64,000 bases of DNA from Escherichia coli (GTDB lineage: Bacteria; Pseudomonadota; Gammaproteobacteria; Enterobacterales; Enterobacteriaceae): assembly GCA_025544715.1 (NCBI GenBank), contig GCA_025544715.1_4109.2, one strand, 5' to 3'. The notes below the pieces were generated by a model. It worked only from the letters and a program-made list of their open reading frames with translations, was not told the DNA's origin and ran no database searches. The translations under genes and the position numbers were made by a program. This document shows, piece by piece, positions 7,146-45,707 of the stretch (its first letter is position 1; each line of letters begins with the position of its first letter).

Positions 7146-8111
7146 TTAGAAATCTTCGTATTCGTACCCTTTTGCAAGTACTAGCTTCTTAAGCTTTTGC
7201 ATAGCTTCACTGTACTTTCGATGTATTGATGAACGGGATTTAACATATTTTCCATTATCATCAACAAAACCATTATCAGCAATCTCACGAAGCGTTTCAG
7301 GTTCATATTCACCTAGACCATGAACACGCTGGATAATCTCACGTTCTTTAGTACTCAATTCGTTAGTCAGTTCATTGATAGCATAACGTAAAGGTGCACG
7401 AATACTATCAACATTGAGGTTAAAATCAGAAGCAGGTGAATGAATAATGTCACCTAGTGTACCATCTGTAACACCGTCTAATGGTGCATCCAGTGAAGTG
7501 TATTCGCTTTGAAATAACAAACAATTATTAACATGCTGAATCTCAATCCCAGTACCCTCTGAGATTATTTCAGGAGTTGGGCGAACACCATGTTTACGCA
7601 TATATTCTTGGCAGAATCTTTTTACTTTGATCTTATGAACACTCATATAACGTGGGAAGTGTACCATATAGTTAGCGTCAGAACTTTCGTTATAAACTGT
7701 CATGTAAATACTAGAAGAAGCATAGGTAATGAACTTCACATTCTTATTAAGATCAAAGGTTTTTAGTGCTCTCATGAACCCCTCAACACCATATGAAATC
7801 TTATCTTCAAATGGGATATAACAAGTACATTTACTTGCTACATCAATAATAAGTCCATAATTGTAACGAACTAACAGTTCAGTGTTTTTCTTTACATTGA
7901 TACCAGCTTGAATATCACGAATTAGATCTTCATTGGTAACATTTTGTGGTCGCTTAAGTGTAATATTATATTTGAAACTGCTTTGTACTTTACCTTCATT
8001 TTCATCTTTATCTTCAACGAAATCTAAGGCTTCTAGTGTGTTGACTTCTTCATTAGCAAAACATTCATCCAGAACTTCTTCGGCAATTGTATTTAAATCA
8101 AGCTTTTTCAC
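7146..8111 (-). CDS. RNA polymerase sigma factor, sigma-70 family (321 aa)
   Basis: region 2-like GFMRALKTFDLNKNVKFITYASSSI and region 4-like LSTKEREIIQRVHGLGEYEPETLREIAD. Confidence 0.6.
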   Translation of the reverse strand: MKKLDLNTIAEEVLDECFANEEVNTLEALDFVEDKDENEGKVQSSFKYNITLKRPQNVTNEDLIRDIQAGINVKKNTELLVRYNYGLIIDVASKCTCYIPFEDKISYGVEGFMRALKTFDLNKNVKFITYASSSIYMTVYNESSDANYMVHFPRYMSVHKIKVKRFCQEYMRKHGVRPTPEIISEGTGIEIQHVNNCLLFQSEYTSLDAPLDGVTDGTLGDIIHSPASDFNLNVDSIRAPLRYAINELTNELSTKEREIIQRVHGLGEYEPETLREIADNGFVDDNGKYVKSRSSIHRKYSEAMQKLKKLVLAKGYEYEDF

Positions 8112-12907: not shown

Positions 12908-14062
12908 ATGTCAAGGTCAATTGCTGCGGCTGGACGCTATAAGTTTGGTGAATGTGGTTATGTTGTTGATGGTGCAATCCTCAACGATGGAACTAGACTA
13001 AAAAATATTAGAATCTATCGCCAAAGAAGCCATAGATTATATGATTTAGTTGATCCCAGAACTAATATAATATATCGTAAAGTACAAATAACAACTAAAG
13101 ATAATAAAGGTTATCTATTAAATTACAATAAAACTAATGACCAACTATTAAGTGAAATTAATAAAAATTGTTTCTTTGTTCGTGGATATTCCGAAGAGCC
13201 ACAAGAAACTGATACTGGATTTGTATATAAATTCATGCTACATAAAACAATTTTAGGTAGTTCACAAACCTTGTATCATATGTATACACCTGAATGTGGT
13301 ATTATAGATCGTGATATAGATAATATTCTCATTTCACCAGTATTTGTTGGTAATGACTCAATTAGTGGTAAATTATTCAATACTGGTTCAGAAATTGATA
13401 CTAATGGTATGGTAATAACAATCGTATTACCAGACGGAACAGAATACTTTACTACCCAATTTGTTAATGATGCATTTACAATTCCAGTTGATGTTATCAC
13501 ACAATCAGGGAAAGGTACTGCTACACTCACTTCTCCATATTATAACACTAAAGTGGTGGAATTTGATGTACTTGAAAGTGGAGAAGATATTGATTTTGTT
13601 ACATCAGTTCTTCTATCCCAATTTGAACCTGTTTCGGAAGGTGTATTTTCTGCGGTTGTTCCATTTGATGTTCATGATCGTGGACAGTACTTAGCACTTC
13701 AAGCATACAGTGGTGACTTATATCAAGTTGGTGTAGATCTTTCTGTAGACGCAGAAGGTAATATTACTGTTTATCAAACTGATAATTTACCTGTTTCTTT
13801 GAGTATAATCGGAAAAACACTGCATACTACTCCTTTCCATAAAGAATATACTTTAAGTGAGTGGGTTCTCGGTGAAGACTCTATGTACTCTATCTCAGTT
13901 CCTGTAACTGAACATGGTAAAGCACTACCACAAGTTCAATTATATTCTTCAGACAATCACGTAGTTCATAGCGAAATACAAGTTGATGAAGATGATAATG
14001 TGATTTTAAAAGTAGTAGAACCACTAGACTGTTCAGTCGTAATAGTTGGTTACAACGCATAA
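12908..14062 (+). CDS. hypothetical protein (384 aa); only clear plus-strand gene
   Basis: long ORF with strong RBS, own promoter and downstream terminator. Confidence 0.6.
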   Translation: MSRSIAAAGRYKFGECGYVVDGAILNDGTRLKNIRIYRQRSHRLYDLVDPRTNIIYRKVQITTKDNKGYLLNYNKTNDQLLSEINKNCFFVRGYSEEPQETDTGFVYKFMLHKTILGSSQTLYHMYTPECGIIDRDIDNILISPVFVGNDSISGKLFNTGSEIDTNGMVITIVLPDGTEYFTTQFVNDAFTIPVDVITQSGKGTATLTSPYYNTKVVEFDVLESGEDIDFVTSVLLSQFEPVSEGVFSAVVPFDVHDRGQYLALQAYSGDLYQVGVDLSVDAEGNITVYQTDNLPVSLSIIGKTLHTTPFHKEYTLSEWVLGEDSMYSISVPVTEHGKALPQVQLYSSDNHVVHSEIQVDEDDNVILKVVEPLDCSVVIVGYNA

Positions 14063-15767: not shown

Positions 15768-16183
15768 TTTGCCCTCTGCCTAGATACATATTCATTAATT
15801 GCATCTTCCAAATCATACCCTGACATTTTTACATTATCAATAGAAACATGATATTTTTTCAGCACTTTTTGTCCAGCAGTGTTCTCCCATATCGACCCAT
15901 CAGGTTCAATATGAACTTTATGGTTCAGGATGAAATCGAACATTTCTTCTTTTGATAAGTTTGCTTTACGGGTTTCAATGTGATTAGTATTAAGTAATTC
16001 ACGAGTATGTTTAATGCCATATTCAGTGTGCTCACCAACACTACGATGCAAAACTTTTAACTGCTCGGCAGCAGTTTCTTCATCATAAACATGAATAGTT
16101 TCAGTACTATATAAAATATCCTGAATATTACCAGTACTTACTTCTGTCCAAGTGTCTTTGAAATGAATTTTGATTGTTTTCAT
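15764..16183 (-). CDS. hypothetical protein (139 aa)
   Basis: ORF track. Confidence 0.45.
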   Translation of the reverse strand: MKTIKIHFKDTWTEVSTGNIQDILYSTETIHVYDEETAAEQLKVLHRSVGEHTEYGIKHTRELLNTNHIETRKANLSKEEMFDFILNHKVHIEPDGSIWENTAGQKVLKKYHVSIDNVKMSGYDLEDAINEYVSRQRAN

Positions 16184-16194
16184 AGAAGCTCGTA

Positions 16195-16641
16195 TTAGTT
16201 ATATGCTGTGAATAGATCAATGTTTTTATCATCTACACTGATTAATTTGCCAGTTGAACTAACAAACACAATATTTCCACCTGGCGTTAGTTGAACACGC
16301 TGGTTTACTGAATATTGCCCATTAAGGTTGTAATCAGCCCATTCGACTACATAACGTTGAATAACACCGTTAGTATCATAAAGATAAACGTGTGTCACGT
16401 CACGCATTTTCAAACGTTCCAACAATGTAGAGTTATCCATGAAATCAGATGGTGTATTGCTGCGTAAAGCAATACCAAACTCACCGATACCAGTACTAAT
16501 TGTCAGTCCGTTTGAAAAACGGCTACAAAGAGTCTTCTCATCAGCAATATGCATCCATAAAACATTCTTTACATCAATATCAACAAATTCACAGTTTTCA
16601 AAAACCAAACCTACTTTGGAAACTTTACCATTAAATTGCAT
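16195..16641 (-). CDS. hypothetical protein (148 aa)
   Basis: ORF track. Confidence 0.45.
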   Translation of the reverse strand: MQFNGKVSKVGLVFENCEFVDIDVKNVLWMHIADEKTLCSRFSNGLTISTGIGEFGIALRSNTPSDFMDNSTLLERLKMRDVTHVYLYDTNGVIQRYVVEWADYNLNGQYSVNQRVQLTPGGNIVFVSSTGKLISVDDKNIDLFTAYN

Positions 16642-17086
16642 TAGTAACTCCTATTTTTTTATATTTTAAAATTAAATCACTCACGGCTTTCATTAGATTA
16701 TATGGAATAGCTAACTCTTTAACAGTACTATCCATAAAATGTTCTTCTTCGGTATCATAAAATGTTGAACTATAGTGTTCACAATCATTTATACTATCAT
16801 AAAAAGAAGACGTAAGTTTATCGACAATGACAGTGATTTGTTTACCAGTTTTGGTATATCCTACCTGAACGGTTAATCCAATATCCTCAGCCTCTACACG
16901 AATTATAAACGAATTATTAGTATAGTTCAGCCAACAATCTTCACCAAAGTATACAACACTGTGTTTCTTCTGAAATGAAGTAGCGGTGTTAAGAACACCA
17001 ATAGCAACATCAACTGTTTTTTCATTTAAAATATTAGACATTTGTGTTCCTGCTTCGTATGTTTCGTGAAATCTCAAAAATACCAT
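16631..17086 (-). CDS. EE-x-FFQ-x-S motif paralogue family protein
   Basis: C-terminal DTEEEHFMDSTVKEL. Confidence 0.55.
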   Translation of the reverse strand: MVFLRFHETYEAGTQMSNILNEKTVDVAIGVLNTATSFQKKHSVVYFGEDCWLNYTNNSFIIRVEAEDIGLTVQVGYTKTGKQITVIVDKLTSSFYDSINDCEHYSSTFYDTEEEHFMDSTVKELAIPYNLMKAVSDLILKYKKIGVTNAI

Positions 17087-17462
17087 TCAACTGTTCAACA
17101 GTTAAACCCTGTAAATCATAAACAGTTGATAGTTGAAAGAAAAGTTCTGAATCTATAGTATCATGTTCAATTGGAAGATTCAAGAGGTCTTTGTTAATAA
17201 AATAATCATATGTTCGAATTGTCAAAGAATCACCAAAGATATCAATGTAAAATTTCGGAACATTATGTAACGAAACATCTATTAATATGTTTTCAGCCTC
17301 TCTACAAGAAATTTTAGAATTATTTTTATAAGATTGGAATGAAAAATTATAAGGTTCATCGACCGATGTGTATGATGAGGTATCACCTTCGGAAAATATT
17401 ACACCACATTCAATAAGATGTGTTAACGACTTAGGTGGAATTTTTAACATTTCACTTCCCAT
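17034..17462 (-). CDS. EE-x-FFQ-x-S motif paralogue family protein
   Basis: C-terminal DSELFFQLSTVYDL; start probably a downstream Met. Confidence 0.55.
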   Translation of the reverse strand: MGSEMLKIPPKSLTHLIECGVIFSEGDTSSYTSVDEPYNFSFQSYKNNSKISCREAENILIDVSLHNVPKFYIDIFGDSLTIRTYDYFINKDLLNLPIEHDTIDSELFFQLSTVYDLQGLTVEQLNGIFEISRNIRSRNTNV

Positions 17463-17880
17463 CCTTACTCATATTACTACGAATCACCCCACTAAGAAAA
17501 CATATTTTCCTTAATGTATCATAACTGATATTTGTAAGATCATGTACAAAATTCAACTGCAAGTACATTTCTTCAGTTAATTGATTAAATGTATCATCAA
17601 CACAAATGTTAGTATGTTCCGTTATGTCTATTTCTATATTATTTTCCCAAATATCAATGCTAACAGCATAGTCTGATGTATGCCTGGATTGAACTGAAAT
17701 AAAAATATTATTACTGTTGTATAATGTCTCGGTGTACCCATTCAAAAATGATCCAACGACAACATCAAAAATGCCATCTCTAATTGGGTTTTTTGTTTCA
17801 AACGTATCACTACAAACTTGACGGTATACAATGTCAACATACTTATCAATTAAAGTAAACAAATAACTCATTACATTCAC
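17452..17880 (-). CDS. EE-x-FFQ-x-S motif paralogue family protein (divergent)
   Basis: C-terminal LTEEMYLQLNFVHDL. Confidence 0.5.
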   Translation of the reverse strand: MNVMSYLFTLIDKYVDIVYRQVCSDTFETKNPIRDGIFDVVVGSFLNGYTETLYNSNNIFISVQSRHTSDYAVSIDIWENNIEIDITEHTNICVDDTFNQLTEEMYLQLNFVHDLTNISYDTLRKICFLSGVIRSNMSKDGK

Positions 17881-17887
17881 CTATATA

Positions 17888-17918
17888 AGAAAAAAGGCCG
17901 ATTCATTGAATCAGCCTT
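17888..17918 (-). terminator. hairpin plus U6; terminator overlapping promoter start region
   Basis: AAGGCTGATTCA / TGAATCGGCCTT inverted repeat followed by UUUUUU on minus strand. Confidence 0.4.
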
Positions 17919-17920
17919 AA

Positions 17921-17949
17921 GTATAACATGTAAGAAGTTAAAATGTCAA
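17921..17949 (-). promoter_or_regulatory. sigma70-like promoter (TTGACA-17-TTATAC)
   Basis: minus-strand reading. Confidence 0.4.
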
Positions 17950-18035
17950 CTTCTAAATTACAGCATCCAAGAGGAATAAAAAGATACTGTTAGAGGGTAA
18001 CGAATATAATGAATTTGAGGGTAATATCATTATAC

Positions 18036-18091
18036 GTAAAAAGTGATAGCTTCTATACATAAGGAGGAATCAGTACTGACTAGAAGCTATC
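18036..18091 (-). terminator. stem-loop (11-bp stem, 25-nt loop) plus ACUUUUUA
   Basis: GATAGCTTCTA ... TAGAAGCTATC inverted repeat just downstream of ORF 18105-18389. Confidence 0.4.
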
Positions 18092-18104
18092 GGGTTAAAC
18101 GATT

Positions 18105-18389
18105 TCAGTACTGAGTGTTTAGTTTAGGATGAGTATTTCCATCTTCGATTTGTTTTAGAATCGAGTCACGAATTTCTACTGCCCCTTGATAACTATATTT
18201 ATCTTTTGGGATCACCCATGTATATTCACCATCAGTGGTTTTAAAATCAATACATGGATTATCCCTGTATTCAGATGCAATGATTGAAATAACATGTAAT
18301 GAATTCAATGAATGATTTGTATAAGGATAATTGTTATTGTCTCTGAACGTGAATGTTTTTAGTTCATCAGGTGCAACAATGAATTCCAT
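18105..18389 (-). CDS. hypothetical protein (94 aa)
   Basis: ORF track. Confidence 0.4.
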   Translation of the reverse strand: MEFIVAPDELKTFTFRDNNNYPYTNHSLNSLHVISIIASEYRDNPCIDFKTTDGEYTWVIPKDKYSYQGAVEIRDSILKQIEDGNTHPKLNTQY

Positions 18390-18580
18390 TATTCATCCTC
18401 GTACTTCTTGAATGGTGGAACATCTACCTTGAAGTCTTTGCACATCTTAGTTGTACGAACTTCAGTATTGTTGTGATAATTTTTCTTAAATTCATAAGAA
18501 ACATAATTACGAATACCAGGTGTATGAATAATAGCAAGAACCAATGTACGACCAAACAAGCATAATAAATTCCAGAACAT
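18389..18580 (-). CDS. hypothetical protein (63 aa)
   Basis: ORF track. Confidence 0.3.
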   Translation of the reverse strand: MFWNLLCLFGRTLVLAIIHTPGIRNYVSYEFKKNYHNNTEVRTTKMCKDFKVDVPPFKKYEDE

Positions 18581-18589
18581 ATGAATCTC

Positions 18590-18955
18590 CTAATTGTGGG
18601 TTTTAACTAAACGTGAGACAGCTAGTATAGCATTAACCTCATCCAATGTCAACCCACCAATGTCATTAATCATTGAGTACTGAAATAGTGATTCTTCAGT
18701 GTAATGGTAATCATGAGAAGCAATAAAGATTGCTGGTTTAGATGCATCCAAAATTATCTTTGTCATTGTACTATATATATCAAATTGATACAATAGATTT
18801 TCACTTGTATATGCTATGTAGATATTATTTGAATAGGCTGGATGTACCATTGTAAAACCATCATAACATAATATTTTTATGTTCGGATCGTCAAAATTGC
18901 CTGTATAAAGGTTATTACAAACATCTTGCATTATACGTACTATTAGACTAGTCAT
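18590..18955 (-). CDS. EE-x-FFQ-x-S motif paralogue family protein
   Basis: C-terminal YTEESLFQYSMINDIGGLTLDEVNAIL. Confidence 0.55.
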   Translation of the reverse strand: MTSLIVRIMQDVCNNLYTGNFDDPNIKILCYDGFTMVHPAYSNNIYIAYTSENLLYQFDIYSTMTKIILDASKPAIFIASHDYHYTEESLFQYSMINDIGGLTLDEVNAILAVSRLVKTHN

Positions 18956-19379
18956 TTAATGGATTTAGTACCTCTTCTGGAATCAACTTTTGAACTTTAA
19001 GTATAGCTTTAATGTCATCAAATGTCAATCCACGTAGGTCGTTTAGGAGGCAGTACTGGAAGAATTTTTCTTCAGTATTTATATCGTCAATATTCATTTG
19101 GATTGATTCGTTATCATCATCATAATCATAATCTTCATTATCACAATAATAACTTCTGAATATAACTCGTTCAAAATACACATCAAATGAATAAAAATGA
19201 TTATCGATTTCATATCCAAGAAAAATATTAAAACATGTATTTAAATCTGTTGTTTCATTTAAATTTGTGTCAAAACAAAAAACTCGCACTTCACCAATAT
19301 CATCTATATATTCATCTTTGAGTGACCATGTGTTGTTTTTTAATACATAGTTCACAAGTTCAACGATGTTGTATTTCAT
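18948..19379 (-). CDS. EE-x-FFQ-x-S motif paralogue family protein
   Basis: C-terminal NTEEKFFQYCLLNDLRGLTFDDIKAIL. Confidence 0.55.
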   Translation of the reverse strand: MKYNIVELVNYVLKNNTWSLKDEYIDDIGEVRVFCFDTNLNETTDLNTCFNIFLGYEIDNHFYSFDVYFERVIFRSYYCDNEDYDYDDDNESIQMNIDDINTEEKFFQYCLLNDLRGLTFDDIKAILKVQKLIPEEVLNPLND

Positions 19380-19391
19380 AGTGTACCTTTA

Positions 19392-19441
<50 letters not shown>

Positions 19442-19498
19442 TAATTGAGAAGTAAGATAACCAACAAGTCTCCATACTCTTTCGCATTGAGGGGAGGC

Positions 19499-19631
<133 letters not shown>

Positions 19632-19691
19632 ATTGGCCTCTTTATGTTAAAAACCCCAGTTTTCTTCTTGAACCATATTACACCTCATTCA

Positions 19692-19772
<81 letters not shown>

Positions 19773-19791
19773 GCATACTCGAAGTACCTCT

Positions 19792-19940
<149 letters not shown>

Positions 19941-19941
19941 G

Positions 19942-20415
<474 letters not shown>

Positions 20416-20427
20416 TTAAATACTCTC

Positions 20428-21107
<680 letters not shown>

Positions 21108-21113
21108 AACTTA

Positions 21114-21653
21114 TTAACGTTCATCATCATGAATCTCACGATGACAATTAGCACAAACCATAATACATTTATCTAGTTCTATTTTGATTTTTTCAAAAGA
21201 ACGAGTTGAACCTTCTTGACTAATTGAAAAATCTTTCTGTGAAGGGTCAATATGGTGAAATTCTAATGCCGCAATGCATTTATTATAACCACACTTTTCG
21301 CAGCAACCACCTTTGTATTCAACAGCTAATATTTTTAATTTTCTACGTCTATCCGAAACACGTTGACTGTCACATTTTGAGCATTTCCATTTACCTTGTG
21401 AATTTAAATCATAATTCTTATTGTGTATTTCACAAAATCTCATTTCATTCGTTGACTTTGGTCGTTTAACACCATGTGATTCAATAATGTTATTGATTCT
21501 TGATCTATTACACTTATATTCTTTGGCTAAACCGTAAATTGGCATACCATTTAAATACTTCTGAATTATTTCATTCTCTGGTAATTTAGAACTTTTCGCC
21601 TTTATTGCTTCGGCTATTTTGTTGCGTGTTTCTTCTGATTGTTTTCGTCCCAT
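21114..21653 (-). CDS. HNH homing endonuclease (179 aa)
   Basis: N-terminal GRKQSEETRNKIAEA (NUMOD-like) and C-terminal LEFHHIDPSQKD...CANCHREIH; adjacent to tRNA cluster. Confidence 0.6.
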   Translation of the reverse strand: MGRKQSEETRNKIAEAIKAKSSKLPENEIIQKYLNGMPIYGLAKEYKCNRSRINNIIESHGVKRPKSTNEMRFCEIHNKNYDLNSQGKWKCSKCDSQRVSDRRRKLKILAVEYKGGCCEKCGYNKCIAALEFHHIDPSQKDFSISQEGSTRSFEKIKIELDKCIMVCANCHREIHDDER

Positions 21654-21718
21654 GAACCTTAGACCTCATAATATCCATTATGATATTATTTATTGTTCCA
21701 AGGTTCATAGTTAATTTG

Positions 21719-21802
21719 CTGGTAGTACTGGAGTCGAACCAGTCTTGTCATTTCTGACACGGATTAACAGTCCGTTGCATAAGGCCGATATGCTAACTAC
21801 CA
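21719..21802 (-). tRNA. tRNA, anticodon GUU as read (Asn), but with a long class-II variable arm; identity uncertain
   Basis: hand fold: 7-bp acceptor, D-arm GCAT/ATGC, anticodon stem ACGGA/TCCGT with loop CTGTTAA, 15-nt variable arm, T-arm ACTGG-TTCGACT-CCAGT. Confidence 0.5.
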
Positions 21803-21814
21803 TTTGTTTTAAAT

Positions 21815-21894
<80 letters not shown>

Positions 21895-21897
21895 GTA

Positions 21898-22391
<494 letters not shown>

Positions 22392-31791: not shown

Positions 31792-32246
31792 TAATCATCG
31801 CCTTTTAGTAATTTACAAATTTCAATCATATGATAATAACATGTATTCCAAAATTGTCCATTAGTACTTCCAACATCATGCACTGTACTTTGCTGGAACA
31901 CATATTCATCGTTGAACATCATTTTAATATCATCAATGTAAAATTCTGGTTTTGAATCATTATTGTATTCAATACTCGTTTCACCATCTGGATCAAGTGA
32001 AATTGATGATATGTCGTGAATTCCTCTCGGATTTGTTGGATAAATTCTCAACGTAAGAGGATAGAAGTCTGGATCGGTTTCATAAGTATATTCGATTATG
32101 TAATAACCATCACCAGTAATTGATTGATATTTAAATGTAGTTTCAATTGAATTTGAGATGTTAAATCCCAGTTTCTTTATCTCATGTAGATGTGATAATA
32201 TTTTATGTAAAGATCCTAAAACATGAATCAAATTATCAATTTTCAT
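31791..32246 (-). CDS. EE-x-FFQ-x-S motif paralogue family protein
   Basis: C-terminal FNDEYVFQQSTVHDVGS. Confidence 0.55.
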   Translation of the reverse strand: MKIDNLIHVLGSLHKILSHLHEIKKLGFNISNSIETTFKYQSITGDGYYIIEYTYETDPDFYPLTLRIYPTNPRGIHDISSISLDPDGETSIEYNNDSKPEFYIDDIKMMFNDEYVFQQSTVHDVGSTNGQFWNTCYYHMIEICKLLKGDD

Positions 32247-32785
32247 TTACGATCCTTTGAAAAGTTCAGTTTAAAAGTTTTACCAAATTCCATTGTAGCT
32301 TTACCCAGATTGTTAATATTTTCTTTCAACATTTCTTGCATCTTCCTAATACTTTCAATCCAGGTTTCTTCTTCGATACGAAGAATTGGTCGCAATCGTT
32401 CCTGAATATCGTTAAAACGTGTATTGAGTTCAACCAATGATTCATATGTGAAATCTTTCATATCGATAATAGTACTTCTTTGAAAGAATTCTTCTTCAGA
32501 CAAATTACTTAAAATGATTTTATCACGACCAATAGATAATGTCAATTCATCATCTTTATTTTTTTTAATTACAATACTAACAGGTGTTTTTAATGTAATG
32601 CAAATATCATGATTATTAAATGTTTCAGTTTGGTTTGACATTCTGAATTGAAGTTTCCCAGATAAAGCATGTACTGGTGATGGTTGCTTTTTACCAGTAA
32701 TAACATCTTCCCATGAATCGAGAATATTATTAATAATTTTAACATAAGGAATTGGCATATATGCACCTATGAAAAATCCACGCAA
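32243..32785 (-). CDS. EE-x-FFQ-x-S motif paralogue family protein (180 aa)
   Basis: LSEEEFFQRSTIIDMKDF with extended C-terminal tail. Confidence 0.55.
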   Translation of the reverse strand: MRGFFIGAYMPIPYVKIINNILDSWEDVITGKKQPSPVHALSGKLQFRMSNQTETFNNHDICITLKTPVSIVIKKNKDDELTLSIGRDKIILSNLSEEEFFQRSTIIDMKDFTYESLVELNTRFNDIQERLRPILRIEEETWIESIRKMQEMLKENINNLGKATMEFGKTFKLNFSKDRK

Positions 32786-32800
32786 TGCGTGGATTTGTAA

Positions 32801-33331
32801 TTATTCAAGTATAGTAATTTCAATTAAACGAATTTCGATAAACTCGTTTTCAGTTTCCCATGACGTGCCAAATTTCTTTTCAAGTTCAGATTTCACATCA
32901 CTTTTAAATTTTCCCATAGTATTAGGAATAATTTGTTTGGTTAATTTGTCGTAACCACAATAAAACATAGGTTTCTCCCTTCGAGATATTAGCTGAACAA
33001 AATCTTTTGGATATGCAGGTATGTTATGCATCACTTCATGAATACACTCAGTACTTGAATCTTGTACTTTGTAGATTACATTAAGTTTACCTCTGAAATT
33101 TGCGGTCATATCAACAATAGTTCCTTTACCCGATTTAAGTAAAGTTCCATTCTTTGAATGAGAGCAATAAAATACCTCATCACCAATATTAGGATAATAC
33201 AAATTAAATTCTAATTCAGATTTTACAGCCAGCCGTTTGAAACTTTCTGTACGTTTTATATAAGTTTGGTATTTGTTTATGTTCAAAAGAATATCTCTCT
33301 TAGTAAATGTGATATAACTGGCATAGTCCAT
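32801..33331 (-). CDS. hypothetical protein (176 aa)
   Basis: ORF track. Confidence 0.45.
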   Translation of the reverse strand: MDYASYITFTKRDILLNINKYQTYIKRTESFKRLAVKSELEFNLYYPNIGDEVFYCSHSKNGTLLKSGKGTIVDMTANFRGKLNVIYKVQDSSTECIHEVMHNIPAYPKDFVQLISRREKPMFYCGYDKLTKQIIPNTMGKFKSDVKSELEKKFGTSWETENEFIEIRLIEITILE

Positions 33332-34143
33332 CCATTCCCAAGCATTTTGTATGCTTGTGTCTTACTAGACACTTTAAAGAAATCTTCAGGAACACCCTGT
33401 AATTTACAACATTCTACTACACTTAAGTGTCTATAGTCAATATTTCTTTTGCCATTCTCTAATAGATATTGACGATTAATCACTGGATCACGAAACACCA
33501 ATTGTCGTCTGGATTTATTAAAGTACTGGTTACAATCACCACCTTTAAAATAGTTAGCATCTATACAGTACGAAGCGGTTCTGTCAGTGTACCAACCATC
33601 TTCAATAATATCTTGAAGTTTAGGTGCATTGGATAATGCAGGTGGTATAAAAAGCTTATCAGTACTGTACCAGTAATATCTCTGCCTGAAGTGAGGCGTA
33701 TAATGCTGGGAGTTTATCAGTACTGGCGTGATTCCTAAAATACTATTAATGTATTCTTTGAAATCTTCCTTCATTTTGACATTTTCAAACAGAAATTTCA
33801 AGTTAGGATTGAGACTTTTGATATGATCAAAAATTTCAACCATTACTAAAAATAACTGCCCACGTATATCATTTAAACCACCCTGTTTACCTGCAACTGA
33901 CCAGGCTTGGCATGGGAAACCACCCATTAATAAATCTATTTTGTCCCACTCAATATCCCATTCTCTCCACTTAGTTACATCACCCAATTGGATAATATCA
34001 GGAAAGTTAGATTGAGATTCAGCTATTGCGTACTTATCAATTTCGGATGAATAATATTTTTCAACTGGGATACCAGCATCTTGCAATGCCATATATCCCA
34101 CACTCATTCCATTAAAAAGAGAAAGTACTCGGATAGGTTTCAT
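33283..34143 (-). CDS. DNA (cytosine-5)-methyltransferase (286 aa)
   Basis: C5-MTase motifs: LSLFNGMSVG (motif I-like), GGFPCQAWS (PCQ), ENV, HFRQRYYW, MLGNGWTMPV (motif X-like). Confidence 0.75.
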   Translation of the reverse strand: MKPIRVLSLFNGMSVGYMALQDAGIPVEKYYSSEIDKYAIAESQSNFPDIIQLGDVTKWREWDIEWDKIDLLMGGFPCQAWSVAGKQGGLNDIRGQLFLVMVEIFDHIKSLNPNLKFLFENVKMKEDFKEYINSILGITPVLINSQHYTPHFRQRYYWYSTDKLFIPPALSNAPKLQDIIEDGWYTDRTASYCIDANYFKGGDCNQYFNKSRRQLVFRDPVINRQYLLENGKRNIDYRHLSVVECCKLQGVPEDFFKVSSKTQAYKMLGNGWTMPVISHLLREIFF

Positions 34144-34800: not shown

Positions 34801-35241
34801 TTAATTGAACTCTACTTCTGGATAATGATTATAGAACATCTCACGAACTGCGTCAAGATGTTCTTTAAATTTCTCAATGTCATCGAGTGTTAATATAGTG
34901 TCACATATAGTACTTAACTGAAAGAGTGATTCTTCAGTACTGTTTAACTCCAAATCAAATGTAGATGACGATTCATCTGAGATAATATTACCACATATTT
35001 CAAATGTGTCAATATGAACATCATTCAGTTTATTACCAATATAATCATTATATATGAACACAAAAATGTATGATGATTTTTTAGTATAGGTTTTAACATC
35101 ATATGTTATGTAACATTTAAAGTCAAATGTATCATATTCCAATGATACAATTCCAACATCACGATATTCGTTTGTTTCACTTGTTAAATCCGGTATAGAT
35201 GTAATACCTAATAAATCAAAAAACTTTATTGGATTTAGCAT
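34801..35241 (-). CDS. EE-x-FFQ-x-S motif paralogue family protein
   Basis: C-terminal STEESLFQLSTICDTILTLDDIEKF. Confidence 0.55.
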   Translation of the reverse strand: MLNPIKFFDLLGITSIPDLTSETNEYRDVGIVSLEYDTFDFKCYITYDVKTYTKKSSYIFVFIYNDYIGNKLNDVHIDTFEICGNIISDESSSTFDLELNSTEESLFQLSTICDTILTLDDIEKFKEHLDAVREMFYNHYPEVEFN

Positions 35242-35687
35242 TTGATTACCTTTGGATTTTGTTCGATTATGTCAAATAATGACAAAACCATTTCATTTAT
35301 TTTTTCAAAACTTAAGACTATATAACTTAAATCTTTATAATCATAATTAAAATTTTGAATAAGTGATTCCTGGAAATATCCTTCTTCTGTTATGCATGTA
35401 CTTGCATTATATATAGTTGTACAAGTCACATCAGTATAAGTTGAAATAATTTCAATAATGTCAGATATAGTATTGTATATTAACATAACTGTTGTTGTTC
35501 TGATAAGTGGGTTGTAAAAGGATAACTCAGTACGGTCATAGGTCTTTTCAATATGAACTATACATGAATGTGAATAAGAACTACTAATATGTATATACTC
35601 TTTAGGTGATACTACACTTTTGGTATCGAAATTACAAGATAATGCAATTTCAAAATGTTTTTTTATTTCGTCAACATTCATCCTCAC
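35235..35687 (-). CDS. EE-x-FFQ-x-S motif paralogue family protein
   Basis: C-terminal ITEEGYFQESLIQNF. Confidence 0.55.
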   Translation of the reverse strand: MRMNVDEIKKHFEIALSCNFDTKSVVSPKEYIHISSSYSHSCIVHIEKTYDRTELSFYNPLIRTTTVMLIYNTISDIIEIISTYTDVTCTTIYNASTCITEEGYFQESLIQNFNYDYKDLSYIVLSFEKINEMVLSLFDIIEQNPKVIKC

Positions 35688-36055
35688 TCACCATTAATTT
35701 TTATATTTGTATAGTCTAATGCTTTTTTAACAATATCGATTTCTGTAATTCCTATTACATTTTTCTCAATCACTGACAATTGGAATAGTTCCTCTTCGGA
35801 AATATCAATACTGTGGATTCTTGTACAATAATCGTTGAAGTCATATACATATCGTATTGTATAGTCGTTTATAGAAACTGATACAATTGCAATCCCATCA
35901 TGGATATAAGTTAGTTCATTTGAGTATCTATTAAAAATTAACCTATCTGGTGAACCTAATGGTAGTTGAAATGTATTTCTAGTATCTTGAACAATAACAA
36001 AATCATCATCTATATTTTTACTCAGAACACCCAAAATATCATATATAGTAGTCAT
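35684..36055 (-). CDS. EE-x-FFQ-x-S motif paralogue family protein
   Basis: C-terminal ISEEELFQLSVIEKNVIGITEIDIV. Confidence 0.55.
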   Translation of the reverse strand: MTTIYDILGVLSKNIDDDFVIVQDTRNTFQLPLGSPDRLIFNRYSNELTYIHDGIAIVSVSINDYTIRYVYDFNDYCTRIHSIDISEEELFQLSVIEKNVIGITEIDIVKKALDYTNIKINGE

Positions 36056-36928: not shown

Positions 36929-37393
36929 TCAAGATGTAAAATAATTATACCAGTAATATAGTTCTTTTAATTCTTCAGTACTGAATAATACTTCTTCTAT
37001 TGTAGATTGTTGAAAGTGATATTCATCATTAAGATACATAGAAATATTACTATATACTTTCCTATTGTATTGACATAAAAAAGAAGTTTTTTTATTAATG
37101 TATTCAGTAAATGTTAATTTATCTAACTCAATATCGAAAGATAATCTAATAATATTAATATTATCATTTACATACATTAGTTTCTTTGAAAAATGATCAA
37201 TTGTAATATATTCTTTGTGAGAGAACTGAAATATATTATTAAATTTTTTACCATTTGTGCTTCTAAATTTTTCAAGGTAATAAGAAAGTGGTTTAATTAT
37301 TGAAGTTCCAATATTATTTTTCATATATACTCGAATTTTAGATAATAAAAATGCCCCGAAGATCGGGGCAGTACTAAAATGATTTTGTACCAA
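36929..37393 (-). CDS. EE-x-FFQ-x-S motif paralogue family protein
   Basis: C-terminal LNDEYHFQQSTIEEVLFSTEELKEL. Confidence 0.55.
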   Translation of the reverse strand: MVQNHFSTAPIFGAFLLSKIRVYMKNNIGTSIIKPLSYYLEKFRSTNGKKFNNIFQFSHKEYITIDHFSKKLMYVNDNINIIRLSFDIELDKLTFTEYINKKTSFLCQYNRKVYSNISMYLNDEYHFQQSTIEEVLFSTEELKELYYWYNYFTS

Positions 37394-44570: not shown

Positions 44571-45707
44571 TTACTTGTTAGCTTTTTCGGCAATTTCACG
44601 AAGAGTGTCTTCCAGTTCATAGGAAAGTTGTGCAATTTCCTGTTTAGCACGTTCACGTTCCAATTTACCTTTTTTCTCTTCCTCAATAACTGCTTCAATA
44701 CTGTCAATCATCGTTTTATGTACATTACGCAAGGTTTTAATATCCACAATACCACGGTTGTTTGCCTTTGCTGCATCCAACATATTTGCTGCAACCATTT
44801 TAGAGTTAGTTTCCAAAAGACGGTTTGTCTCGTTGTCAATAAGATTACCCAGTTCATTATCCTTACGTTGACGCTCGGAAATCAACTGTTCAGCCAATTG
44901 AGACTTCCATGCTGGAATAACAACGGATTTTAAATCTTCAAACTTAGAAACAGTGTTCAAGTTTACTTTTTTCATACTCATCAAGCGTGGACCACTTAGT
45001 TCGCACATCATGATAAGACGACGAATCTTATCTTCTTGTTTAGAAAGTGCTTCACAAATCATCTTTTGCTCTTGAATAGCAAAAGAGTCTACATTTTTGT
45101 CTGCTTGCATTTCTACTAGTAATGCATCTTGTGTTTTAGTTACTTCTTCTAAACCAACTAATGTATCACGTAATTCAAACAAATATTCTTTGTTTTCATT
45201 ATATGCTTTATCAAGCCATTCACATTCTCCGTGCTGGCGATTAATACCAGTTTGAAGAGTTTTCATAATTTCATCAATTTGCTCTTTACTGTTTTTGTAC
45301 TGATCACCGACTTTCTGTTGAGCATTAACAAAGAATTTCTTAATACGACCAACAATTGATTTATCTTCTTGAAGACTGTCAATATCAACTGCACGAGTCA
45401 ACGTAAGAATTGTGGTGATTGATTTACCAAACTCGGTATTGTCATCTGTTACATTAACTTTAGACATAATTTCATCAGCCAGACGCCCAACAGCAGCACC
45501 AGCAGTTGTACCAACAGTATTGATGTTTTGAACTGTTAGAGACATAGTATTTCCCTTAACATCTTTCAGTACTGGTAGTGATTTTGTAGTTTGGTTAAAA
45601 ATATCACTTGCATCAATTGTATGACCTTTAGTCGCAGTTTTAGTAGTACGTTTTGCTGATTTAGCTGCGGTGGATGCTTTTTTAGGATTGATTTCTTTCT
45701 CGGACAT
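44571..45707 (-). CDS. coiled-coil protein, possibly TelA-like (378 aa)
   Basis: size and charged helical composition recall TelA family; unverified. Confidence 0.45.
   Translation of the reverse strand: MSEKEINPKKASTAAKSAKRTTKTATKGHTIDASDIFNQTTKSLPVLKDVKGNTMSLTVQNINTVGTTAGAAVGRLADEIMSKVNVTDDNTEFGKSITTILTLTRAVDIDSLQEDKSIVGRIKKFFVNAQQKVGDQYKNSKEQIDEIMKTLQTGINRQHGECEWLDKAYNENKEYLFELRDTLVGLEEVTKTQDALLVEMQADKNVDSFAIQEQKMICEALSKQEDKIRRLIMMCELSGPRLMSMKKVNLNTVSKFEDLKSVVIPAWKSQLAEQLISERQRKDNELGNLIDNETNRLLETNSKMVAANMLDAAKANNRGIVDIKTLRNVHKTMIDSIEAVIEEEKKGKLERERAKQEIAQLSYELEDTLREIAEKANK

What the first reader, a model, noticed from the sequence alone, without database searches (positions are those of the whole stretch)
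16631..19379. Paralogue array A: five motif-bearing genes next to the truncated tRNA-like element
Three contiguous members (16631-17880) and two more (18590-19379) are separated by a terminator/promoter pair and two non-member ORFs. The array ends at the tRNA-like fragment, suggesting the family expanded into or rearranged the tRNA region.
Basis: seen in the sequence. Interest (0 to 1): 0.6.

Follow-up and report, generated by a model that had tools for sequence, protein, structure and literature searches.

The report
Jumbo-phage early-gene family beside broken tRNA
The five genes really are old, diverged copies of one another, part of an uncharacterised family of at least 18 small early proteins found only in RaK2-like giant phages, but they did not break the neighbouring tRNA gene, which lost 27 bases through a separate small deletion.

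Summary

**Source.** The window comes from an Asteriusvirus jumbo coliphage, about 95-96% identical to 121Q and phAPEC6 over 16000-20000.

**The five genes.** All five minus-strand ORFs share a C-terminal signature, [S/T]-E-E-(E)-x-F-[Q/M]-x-S-[T/L]-[V/I]-x-D. They belong to a family with at least 18 copies in the window.
- An exhaustive search of 1.84 billion proteins found only 115 clusters, all small proteins carrying the motif.
- Named relatives are RaK2-like jumbo phages (Asteriusvirus, RaK2, GAP32, CBB).
- AlphaFold gives a confident helix / beta-meander / two-helix fold with no significant match to any solved structure.
- No Pfam, NCBIfam or PADLOC hit. The PHROG families hit are all of unknown function.

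**Expression and evolution.** The genes sit in a region dense with host sigma-70 promoters. Two of these promoters are embedded in homologous codons of A5 and A4. The family evolves faster than its neighbours, and copy number differs between lineages.

**The tRNA-like fragment.** It is tRNA-Thr(UGU) with a 27-nt internal deletion, probably between short direct repeats (inferred). Every relative examined has the intact tRNA at the same place next to A5, so the array did not invade or rearrange it.

**Function.** Unknown. My best guess is early host-takeover or counter-defence binders.

The parts
16631..17041 (-). A1, family member (136 aa from ATG 17041; the ORF runs up to 17086). Orthologue of 121Q gp148.
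   Evidence: Leave-one-out HMM E=2.2e-6. PHROG 24027. AF2 model pLDDT 76, with N-terminal helix, beta-strands and two C-terminal helices. AGGA ribosome-binding site before 17041. 99% identical to 121Q gp148.
17034..17450 (-). A2, family member (138 aa; the ORF runs up to 17462). Overlaps A1 by 8 nt. Orthologue of 121Q gp147.
   Evidence: Leave-one-out E=1.1e-6. PHROG 17453. BLAST to A4 2e-7 and to A5 3e-5.
17452..17880 (-). A3, family member. The likely true start is ATG 17871 (139 aa), preceded by AGGTGA. Orthologue of 121Q gp146.
   Evidence: Leave-one-out E=3.1e-6. PHROG 35192. Start check. The G17 annotation uses the shorter form.
17884..17918 (-). Intrinsic-terminator-like hairpin (11 bp, loop 3) plus U-tract, just upstream of A3.
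   Evidence: Annotated as a terminator in the G17 record at the homologous position.
17920..17949 (-). Sigma-70-like promoter (TTGACA-18-TG-TATACT, 11/12) abutting the terminator. The inferred start site falls inside the 5' arm of the hairpin.
   Evidence: The position of the start site relative to the hairpin is inference.
18105..18389 (-). Non-member ORF (94 aa, PHROG 30132, unknown function).
   Evidence: dN/dS 0.07 against WPEC3.
18389..18580 (-). Non-member ORF (63 aa, hydrophobic N-terminus, PHROG 28948).
18590..18955 (-). A4, family member (121 aa). Orthologue of 121Q gp142.
   Evidence: Leave-one-out E=8e-12. AF2 model pLDDT 85.8, pTM 0.75. Closest paralogue is A5 at 29% identity, E=2e-12.
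18624..18652 (-). Sigma-70-like promoter embedded in A4 codons G-L-T...A-I-L, 44 nt upstream of the next gene.
18948..19379 (-). A5, family member (143 aa). Overlaps A4 by 8 nt. Orthologue of 121Q gp141, but only 80% identical to it.
   Evidence: Leave-one-out E=7e-10..
19000..19028 (-). Sigma-70-like promoter embedded in the homologous A5 codons G-L-T...A-I-L, 45 nt upstream of A4.
19396..19441 (-). tRNA-Thr(UGU) pseudogene. The acceptor stem, the 5' part of the D arm and the T arm are kept. 27 nt are deleted (3' D arm, anticodon arm, most of the variable loop).
   Evidence: Alignment with G17 and 121Q. Not called by ARAGORN or Rfam. Comparison with JNE01, WPEC3 and host thrU.

Best explanation
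Shown:
- The five genes are ancient, strongly diverged tandem paralogues (22-29% pairwise identity among A2-A5; A1 is more distant).
- The family is restricted, as far as I can see, to RaK2-like jumbo phages. It has at least 18 copies between window positions 2.0 and 38.5 kb.
- Members are small (about 115-180 aa) and mostly acidic, with no signal peptide or membrane segment apparent on inspection (not tested with a predictor).
- The predicted fold is N-terminal helix, antiparallel beta-meander, two C-terminal helices.
- Almost the only conserved residues lie on helix 2 and the following loop: T86 E87 E88 F91 Q92 S94 D98 in A4 numbering. The beta-sheet is hypervariable.
- The array lies in a region packed with near-consensus host sigma-70 promoters. 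Two of them are written into homologous codons of A5 and A4: TTG-ACA (Leu-Thr) forms the -35 element and GC-T-ATA-CT forms the -10 element.
- Family genes accumulate amino-acid changes 2 to 10 times faster than their neighbours, and copy number differs between lineages.

Inferred:
- The genes are transcribed early by host RNA polymerase.
- A tandem duplication carries along the promoter for the next gene downstream.
- A terminator overlapped by a promoter insulates the A3-A2-A1 unit.
- The proteins are host-takeover or counter-defence binders. The conserved acidic/polar stripe of helix 2 would be a common docking or active surface, and the variable sheet would give target specificity.

The adjacent tRNA-like element is an unrelated accident: a 27-nt deletion in tRNA-Thr(UGU), probably by slippage between short direct repeats.
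For: Family reality:
-.
- The profile search of 1.84e9 representatives returned 115 small proteins, and the tails inspected carry the motif.

Taxonomic range:
- RaK2-length contig with 7 copies in 13 kb.
- GAP32 with 7 copies in 30 kb.
- BFVD structural hits only to UB, CBB, GAP32, RaK2 and fHe-Yen9-04 proteins.

Fold and novelty:
- for the two models.

Other properties:
- Acidity. Conservation map.
- The motif is selected at the protein level, because its synonymous codons vary.
- Promoters: 31 sites with >=11/12 matches on the coding strand, 2 on the other strand, 2.8 expected, mostly 30-50 nt before start codons.
- Embedded promoters are conserved in orthologues. TTG-ACA is kept in 7 of 8 despite six Leu codons in an AT-rich genome.
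- Rates: family dN 0.17-0.47 and dN/dS 0.22-0.45; neighbours dN 0.02-0.14 and dN/dS 0.06-0.22.
- Copy-number change in JNE01.

tRNA deletion.
Against: - No experiment or homology links any member to a function. The takeover/counter-defence role rests on early-promoter context, acidity, diversification and analogy.
- dN/dS stays below 1, so relaxed constraint cannot be separated from diversifying selection.
- T-E-E-E is also a textbook helix N-capping box and F91 is probably buried, so part of the motif may be purely structural.
- The promoters are consensus matches, not mapped start sites.
- The AF2 models are predictions, and residues 24-41 of the A1 model are low-confidence.
Confidence: 0.6

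Rival explanations
1. The motif is only a fold-stabilising element: a helix N-cap (T-x-x-E) plus a buried Phe. The paralogues then share no common partner or activity. They would be a scaffold that has drifted into unrelated roles, or into none.
For: T/S-E-E-E matches the classical capping-box pattern, and F91 is 99% conserved. The rest of each protein is hypervariable. dN/dS is below 1 but elevated.
Against: A polar stripe beyond what capping needs is 72-94% conserved (E87, E88, Q92, S94, D98) across sequences that otherwise share about 10-20% identity. At least 18 copies are retained per genome in several genera.
Confidence: 0.25
2. The family has a tRNA- or translation-linked role. For example, its members could be acidic decoys or inhibitors of host anticodon nucleases, or factors acting on the phage tRNAs. 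That would explain why its genes sit among tRNA genes.
For: Members are interleaved with tRNA genes in this window (19.4-25.9 kb), in GAP32 and in two uncultured relatives. [quoted passage not shown]
Against: - The RaK2-type array of 7 members has no tRNA within 13 kb.
- Most window members (31-38.5 kb) are far from tRNAs.
- In GAP32 only 2 of 7 members directly abut a tRNA, and by eye this looks no different from the many other small genes there; I ran no statistical test.
- The proteins are acidic, so direct RNA binding is unlikely.
Confidence: 0.1
3. One reading: expansion or rearrangement of the paralogue array damaged the tRNA gene.
For: The remnant is 17 nt from A5. The break in identity to 121Q begins inside A5.
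Against: - The tRNA-Thr/A5 junction and its flanks are collinear in 121Q, G17, WPEC3 and JNE01, all with intact tRNAs.
- The lesion is a clean internal 27-nt deletion, flanked in WPEC3 and JNE01 by an AGGT direct repeat (GT only in 121Q and G17).
- The identical remnant exists in a lambdoid prophage that has no such array.
Confidence: 0.03
4. The proteins are virion-packaged internal proteins injected with the DNA.
For: They are small acidic proteins. A structural Ig-domain protein gene lies nearby at 12908-14062.
Against: 121Q labels a number of genes, including neighbouring gp155, as structural proteins. None of gp141, 142 or 146-148 carries that label. I did not establish what evidence that label rests on. 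Sigma-70 early-type promoters rather than late context.
Confidence: 0.04

Closest known systems
PHROG families 17453 (A2, A4, A5), 24027 (A1) and 35192 (A3)
   Same: These are direct sequence matches, E 1e-11 to 1e-97. The genes are already catalogued and annotated as hypothetical proteins in 121Q, G17 and other records.
   Different: PHROGs splits them into several families, all of unknown function. The unifying helix-2 signature and the family size are not recorded in any source I could search.
[quoted passage not shown]
   Same: The general phenomenon is the same: tandem duplication of small genes of unknown function that enlarges a jumbo-phage genome.
   Different: The 121Q array reported by Hua et al. 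as 'very similar genes' is probably a different family. Candidates are the roughly 60-aa genes gp249-265 or the RCC1-like genes gp234-248 at 117-135 kb. No members of this family are found there. The family here is far more diverged and is dispersed in several sub-arrays.
p32 / MAM33 / gC1qR-type acidic proteins
   Different: The scores are in the noise: Foldseek probability 0.04-0.06 and TM 0.2-0.3. There are fewer strands, no sequence similarity, and the trimeric ring is untested. This is a lead, not a relationship.
Pseudo-tRNA genes and homing-endonuclease-rich tRNA islands of RaK2-like and T4-like phages
   Same: RaK2 carries two pseudo-tRNAs (PMC3622015). CBB has an HNH gene at the end of a tRNA gene (PMC5259590). 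This window has an HNH ORF at 21114-21653 beside tRNA-Asn, and relatives carry an HNH gene next to tRNA-Thr.
   Different: Here the pseudogene is specific to this genome among the 38 Asteriusvirus records that matched this stretch. It has a defined 27-nt deletion.

Membership tests
TEEEFFQxS small-protein family of RaK2-like jumbo phages (defined here) | C-terminal signature [S/T]-E-E-x-x-F-[Q/M]-x-S-[T/L]-[V/I]-x-D in a protein of about 115-180 aa | tested here: met
   A1, A4 and A5 show it clearly. A2 (DSELFFQLS) and A3 (TEEMYLQLN) show it in degenerate form. Each passes the leave-one-out HMM.
TEEEFFQxS small-protein family of RaK2-like jumbo phages (defined here) | Fold: N-terminal helix, antiparallel beta-meander, two C-terminal helices, with the motif on helix 2 | tested here: met
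   AF2 models of A4 (pLDDT 85.8) and A1 (pLDDT 76.1) have the same element order. A2, A3 and A5 were not modelled.
PHROG 17453 / 24027 / 35192 | Significant profile match over the full length | tested here: met
   E 1.9e-11 to 1.7e-97. All three are of unknown function.
Any Pfam, NCBIfam or PADLOC family | Profile match above the curated threshold | tested here: not met
   There were no hits, or only sub-threshold noise.
p32 / MAM33 fold | Significant structural superposition on solved members | tested here: not met
p32 / MAM33 fold | Homotrimeric doughnut assembly | not testable with these tools
   Only monomer prediction is available.
tRNA (for the fragment 19396-19441) | Complete cloverleaf with an anticodon arm | tested here: not met
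   Not called by ARAGORN or Rfam at E<=1. The alignment shows that the 27 nt holding the anticodon arm are missing.
tRNA (for the fragment 19396-19441) | Descent from tRNA-Thr(UGU): acceptor stem and T arm identical to the intact gene in relatives | tested here: met
Homing endonuclease or mobile-element ORFs typical of phage tRNA clusters | HNH, GIY-YIG or LAGLIDADG nuclease domain | tested here: not met
   There are no such domains in the five proteins, and the fold is unrelated.
Acidic anti-restriction / DNA-mimic proteins (Ocr, ArdA, Arn type) | Strongly acidic surface mimicking DNA, and structural similarity to known mimics | tested here: inconclusive

The most novel reading that the evidence does not exclude
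The family is a modular early-effector arsenal peculiar to RaK2-like jumbo phages. One conserved acidic helix would dock every paralogue onto a single hub, either a host machine or a phage partner. The hypervariable sheet of each copy would capture a different host or defence target. The arrays would renew themselves by tandem duplication of self-promoting gene units (promoter embedded in the coding sequence). They would sit beside tRNA cassettes because both are exchangeable counter-defence cargo.
Probability: 0.2. Interest if true: 0.65.

Novelty: new member of a known kind. Interest (0 to 1): 0.38.

Why it matters
Most of the roughly 600 genes in a phage of this group are of unknown function (83% in phAPEC6). 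About 18 of them can now be treated as one family with a defined signature, a confident fold model, a likely expression class and clear mutagenesis targets. That makes them tractable for interaction screens and defence-library assays. The promoters written into conserved codons show how a tandem array can stay expressed as it grows. The tRNA result is a caution: a tRNA fragment beside a gene array does not mean the array caused the damage.

Tried and rejected
- A degenerate DNA pattern for TEEEFFQ found only 6 viral contigs, and 3 of those had no family member.
- A second homologous-protein search with the broad alignment returned only close relatives.
- The afdb50 fold library was unavailable.
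- Literature searches found only general remarks on paralogues and nothing on this family.
- I considered equating this family with the '>30 very similar genes' array reported for 121Q. I rejected this because that part of 121Q holds other repeated genes and no family members.
- I considered that the tRNA remnant might be a stable functional minihelix. Its predicted fold keeps the acceptor stem but is not significantly more stable than shuffled sequences, z = -1.7.
- I searched for the deletion junction elsewhere. There were 0 hits in viral contigs and 0 in species-representative genomes. The single metagenome hit is the same E. coli prophage. I found no sequenced jumbo phage that shares the deletion, so a sequencing or assembly error in the source cannot be excluded.
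Full report
**Source and setting**

The window is from an Asteriusvirus jumbo coliphage. Positions 16000-20000 match 121Q, phAPEC6, PBECO4 and about 30 other genomes of roughly 350 kb at 93-96% identity. Nearly all genes are on the minus strand.

ARAGORN finds six tRNA genes between 21.7 and 24.7 kb: Asn, Met, Ser, Arg, Ser and Gly. The relative Sharanji is reported to have seven, the extra one being Thr (PMC11895373).

The window also carries several recognisable genes:
- a phage sigma-70-family factor at 7146-8111;
- a C5 cytosine methylase at 33283-34143;
- a clamp-loader subunit and topoisomerase II subunits.

**Checking the observation**

The five ORFs exist as described. Their C-termini visibly share a motif:
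- A1 DTEEEHFMDS
- A2 DSELFFQLS
- A3 TEEMYLQLN
- A4 TEESLFQYS
- A5 TEEKFFQYC

BLAST within the window links A2 to A5 to one another. A4-A5 is 29% identical at E=2e-12, and A2-A4 gives E=2e-7. A1 is left at the margin.

An iterated HMM search started from A2-A5 converged on 17 ORFs, with a gap from E=1e-19 to 2e-3. In leave-one-out tests every one of the five is recovered at E=1e-6 to 1e-12. With a broader profile, 18 window ORFs score.

The strict pattern EE..F[QM].S occurs 10 times in minus-strand frames and never in plus-strand frames. The expectation is 0.01. Synonymous codons vary within the motif (Ser AGT/TCA/TCT, Phe TTT/TTC, Gln CAA/CAG), so selection acts on the protein and not on the DNA.

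The intervening features are also as stated.
- An 11-bp hairpin with a U-tract lies at 17884-17918, and a TTGACA-18-TATACT site at 17920-17949. G17's record annotates a terminator at the homologous spot.
- ORFs 18105-18389 and 18389-18580 are not members.
- Ribosome-binding sites and the published annotations favour starts at 17041 (A1), 17450 (A2) and 17871 (A3).

**What the family is**

A full HMMER search of 1.84 billion representative proteins found only 115 clusters at E<=1e-3. All are 62-192 aa. The C-terminal tails I inspected carry the same signature.

Where a source is known, the proteins lie on contigs of roughly 350 kb or in E. coli assemblies that contain such contigs. The family is arrayed in other genera as well.
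- A RaK2-length contig has 7 members in 13 kb.
- GAP32 has 7 members in 30 kb.
- Two uncultured relatives of GAP32 and of Erwinia phages have 3 and 5 members.

The 121Q segment flanking the window on one side (97-147 kb) has none.

No Pfam, NCBIfam or PADLOC family matches. PHROGs places the five in three families of unknown function.

AlphaFold2, run with a 103-sequence alignment, gives A4 a confident model (pLDDT 85.8, pTM 0.75). Its elements are helix 4-15, five antiparallel strands, helix 87-96 and helix 104-120. A1 gives the same order of elements at pLDDT 76.

Comparison with known structures found nothing convincing.
- Foldseek against the PDB finds nothing below E=0.2.
- A profile search of PDB sequences finds nothing below E=1.
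- Foldseek against predicted viral structures finds only uncharacterised proteins of UB, CBB, GAP32, RaK2 and fHe-Yen9-04.

Across the 103 sequences, only a few positions are conserved (A4 numbering):
- T86 64%
- E87 92%
- E88 94%
- F91 99%
- Q92 83%
- S94 92%
- D98 72%
- more weakly, Y49 and E105

These form two adjacent stripes on helix 2. Mean column identity elsewhere is about 9%. Thirteen of the 17 core members are acidic, and the five here have pI 4.05-5.0.

**How the array is organised and evolves**

On the coding strand of the window there are 31 sites matching TTGACA-N16-18-TATAAT at 11 or 12 of 12 positions. The other strand has 2, and a first-order Markov model expects 2.8. Most lie 30-50 nt before a start codon. 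I infer that the whole region is transcribed early by host RNA polymerase.

Three of these sites serve the array.
- One lies before A3.
- One lies inside the 3' end of A5, 45 nt before A4.
- One lies inside the 3' end of A4, 44 nt before the next gene.

The last two occupy homologous codons. G-L-T-(F/L)-D-(D/E)-x-x-A-I-L is encoded as GGx TTG ACA ... GCT ATA CTx. Leu-Thr therefore spells the -35 element and Ala-Ile-Leu spells the -10 element. TTG-ACA is retained in 7 of 8 orthologues examined.

I infer that the duplication which produced A4 and A5 copied a gene together with the promoter for whatever lies downstream. I also infer that the promoter at 17920-17949 starts inside the 5' arm of the adjacent hairpin. 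Read-through from upstream would then terminate there, while transcripts from this promoter would not.

Genes within each sub-array overlap by 8 nt or abut, which suggests translational coupling.

Each of the five has a syntenic orthologue in 121Q (80-99% amino-acid identity), in G17 (by synteny and record annotation, not aligned) and in WPEC3 (44-74%). The duplications therefore predate these lineages.

Against WPEC3, the rates differ between family genes and their nine neighbours:

| Genes | dN | dN/dS |
|---|---|---|
| Family (A1-A5) | 0.17-0.47 | 0.22-0.45 |
| Nine neighbouring genes | 0.02-0.14 | 0.06-0.22 |

In JNE01 only A5 is clearly conserved (63%). Six members with at most 33% identity stand where A1-A3 are. 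A4 and ORF 18105-18389 are absent. The flanking genes are 44-86% identical.

**The tRNA-like fragment**

Aligned with G17 and 121Q, positions 19396-19441 are tRNA-Thr(UGU) minus 27 internal bases, GTAGAGCGTTCCTCTTGTAAGGGAAAT. Both ends and both flanks are intact.

In WPEC3 and JNE01 the deleted block is bounded by AGGT direct repeats. In the host's own thrU the repeat is 9 nt, TCAGTAGGT, and deletion between its copies gives exactly the same 46-nt product.

That same 46-mer occurs in a lambdoid prophage of E. coli A10, between the Q antiterminator and the lysis genes, and in a metagenome contig identical to that prophage. Two origins are possible: a recurrent slippage deletion, or a short-patch conversion from such a prophage copy. 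I cannot distinguish them.

None of the 38 Asteriusvirus records that matched this stretch, and no IMG/VR contig, carries the deletion. It is therefore private to this genome, or it is an error in the source sequence.

The predicted fold of the remnant keeps the acceptor stem but is not unusually stable.

**Is there a tRNA association?**

At regional level, yes. Family genes and tRNA genes share the same stretch here, in GAP32 and in its uncultured relatives.

It is not specific, however.
- The RaK2-type array has no tRNA nearby.
- Most window members are 6-14 kb from any tRNA.
- In GAP32 only 2 of 7 members abut a tRNA, and by eye this looks no different from the other small genes there; I ran no statistical test.

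The tRNA neighbourhood is separately a mosaic hot spot.
- Identity to 121Q is 98-100% from 13000 to about 19000, and 84-94% from 19000 to 19900.
- Identity collapses at 20000-20400 and at 21100-21900.
- In the second collapsed stretch the window has an HNH-type ORF and an Asn-Met-Ser tRNA cassette unrelated in sequence to those of 121Q and G17.

**Interpretation**

The descriptive account is well supported. It covers the paralogue family, its fold, its restricted range, its early-type promoters, its faster evolution and the independent tRNA deletion.

The function is not known. I commit, at roughly 30% for that step, to early host-takeover or counter-defence binders with a conserved docking helix and a variable target-binding sheet. 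The basis is early context, acidity, diversification, copy-number flux, and co-residence with a methylase and exchangeable tRNA cassettes.

The main rival is that the motif is merely a capping box plus core residue with no common partner.

The general existence of paralogues in these phages has been noted (PMC3622015, PMC5646251). I found no description of this family. It is a new, uncharacterised member of a familiar kind of thing, and of moderate interest.

Noticed in passing
window 19632-19977: A 345-nt non-coding stretch upstream of the tRNA-Thr remnant holds the palindrome (T)ATTCAGTACTGAAT(A) at 19823-19838 and 19944-19959, plus a degenerate copy at 19709-19724. Spacing is 115-121 nt. 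A 1-mismatch copy lies at 36972-36987. The chance expectation is 0.06. In vB_Ec-M-J and WPEC5 an HNH endonuclease gene lies within the region matching window 19300-19700.
   Followed up: partly
whole window, minus strand: There are 31 near-consensus sigma-70 promoters (>=11/12 matches) on the coding strand, 2 on the other strand and 2.8 expected. Most lie 30-50 nt before start codons. The phage also encodes its own sigma-70-family protein at 7146-8111.
   Followed up: partly
L012 (E. coli A10, NZ_CP028764) 2501-2546; L015: The identical 46-nt truncated tRNA-Thr sits next to a tRNA-Glu in a lambdoid prophage, between the antiterminator and the holin genes. It is unannotated. Host thrU has a 9-nt direct repeat that predicts this deletion.
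   Followed up: yes
window 21114-21988: The window has an HNH-type ORF (179 aa with Cys/His motifs; no Pfam hit at E<=1e-3) beside tRNA-Asn. Its Asn-Met-Ser tRNA cassette is unrelated in sequence to those of 121Q and G17, which also differ from each other. The window has tRNA-Ser(GCU) where 121Q and G17 have tRNA-Ser(ACU). The window's tRNA-Asn is 85 nt with about 10 extra bases after the anticodon arm.
   Followed up: partly
window 19978-20415: This 145-aa gene has no counterpart at this position in 121Q or G17. It is 81% identical to the WPEC3 protein and 86% identical to the JNE01 protein. This points to cassette exchange between Asteriusvirus lineages.
   Followed up: partly
window 33283-34143 and 44571-45707: A C5 cytosine DNA methylase is embedded between family members 32243-32785 and 34801-35241. 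A TelA-like protein lies further on.
   Followed up: no
L013 (121Q 117-135 kb): 121Q has two other repeated gene sets: about 13 RCC1-like 'DNA condensation' genes (gp234-248) and a run of about 17 genes of roughly 60 aa (gp249-265). These are probably the '>30 very similar genes' of Hua et al. 2017.
   Followed up: no
window 35684-36055 and 22020-22391: These are two borderline extra family members. The first scores E=2e-5 with the broad profile and carries SEEELFQLS. The second scores about E=0.01 in the iterated window-only search and E=2e-5 to 5e-3 in three leave-one-out runs, but does not reach E<=0.01 with the broad 103-sequence profile.
   Followed up: partly
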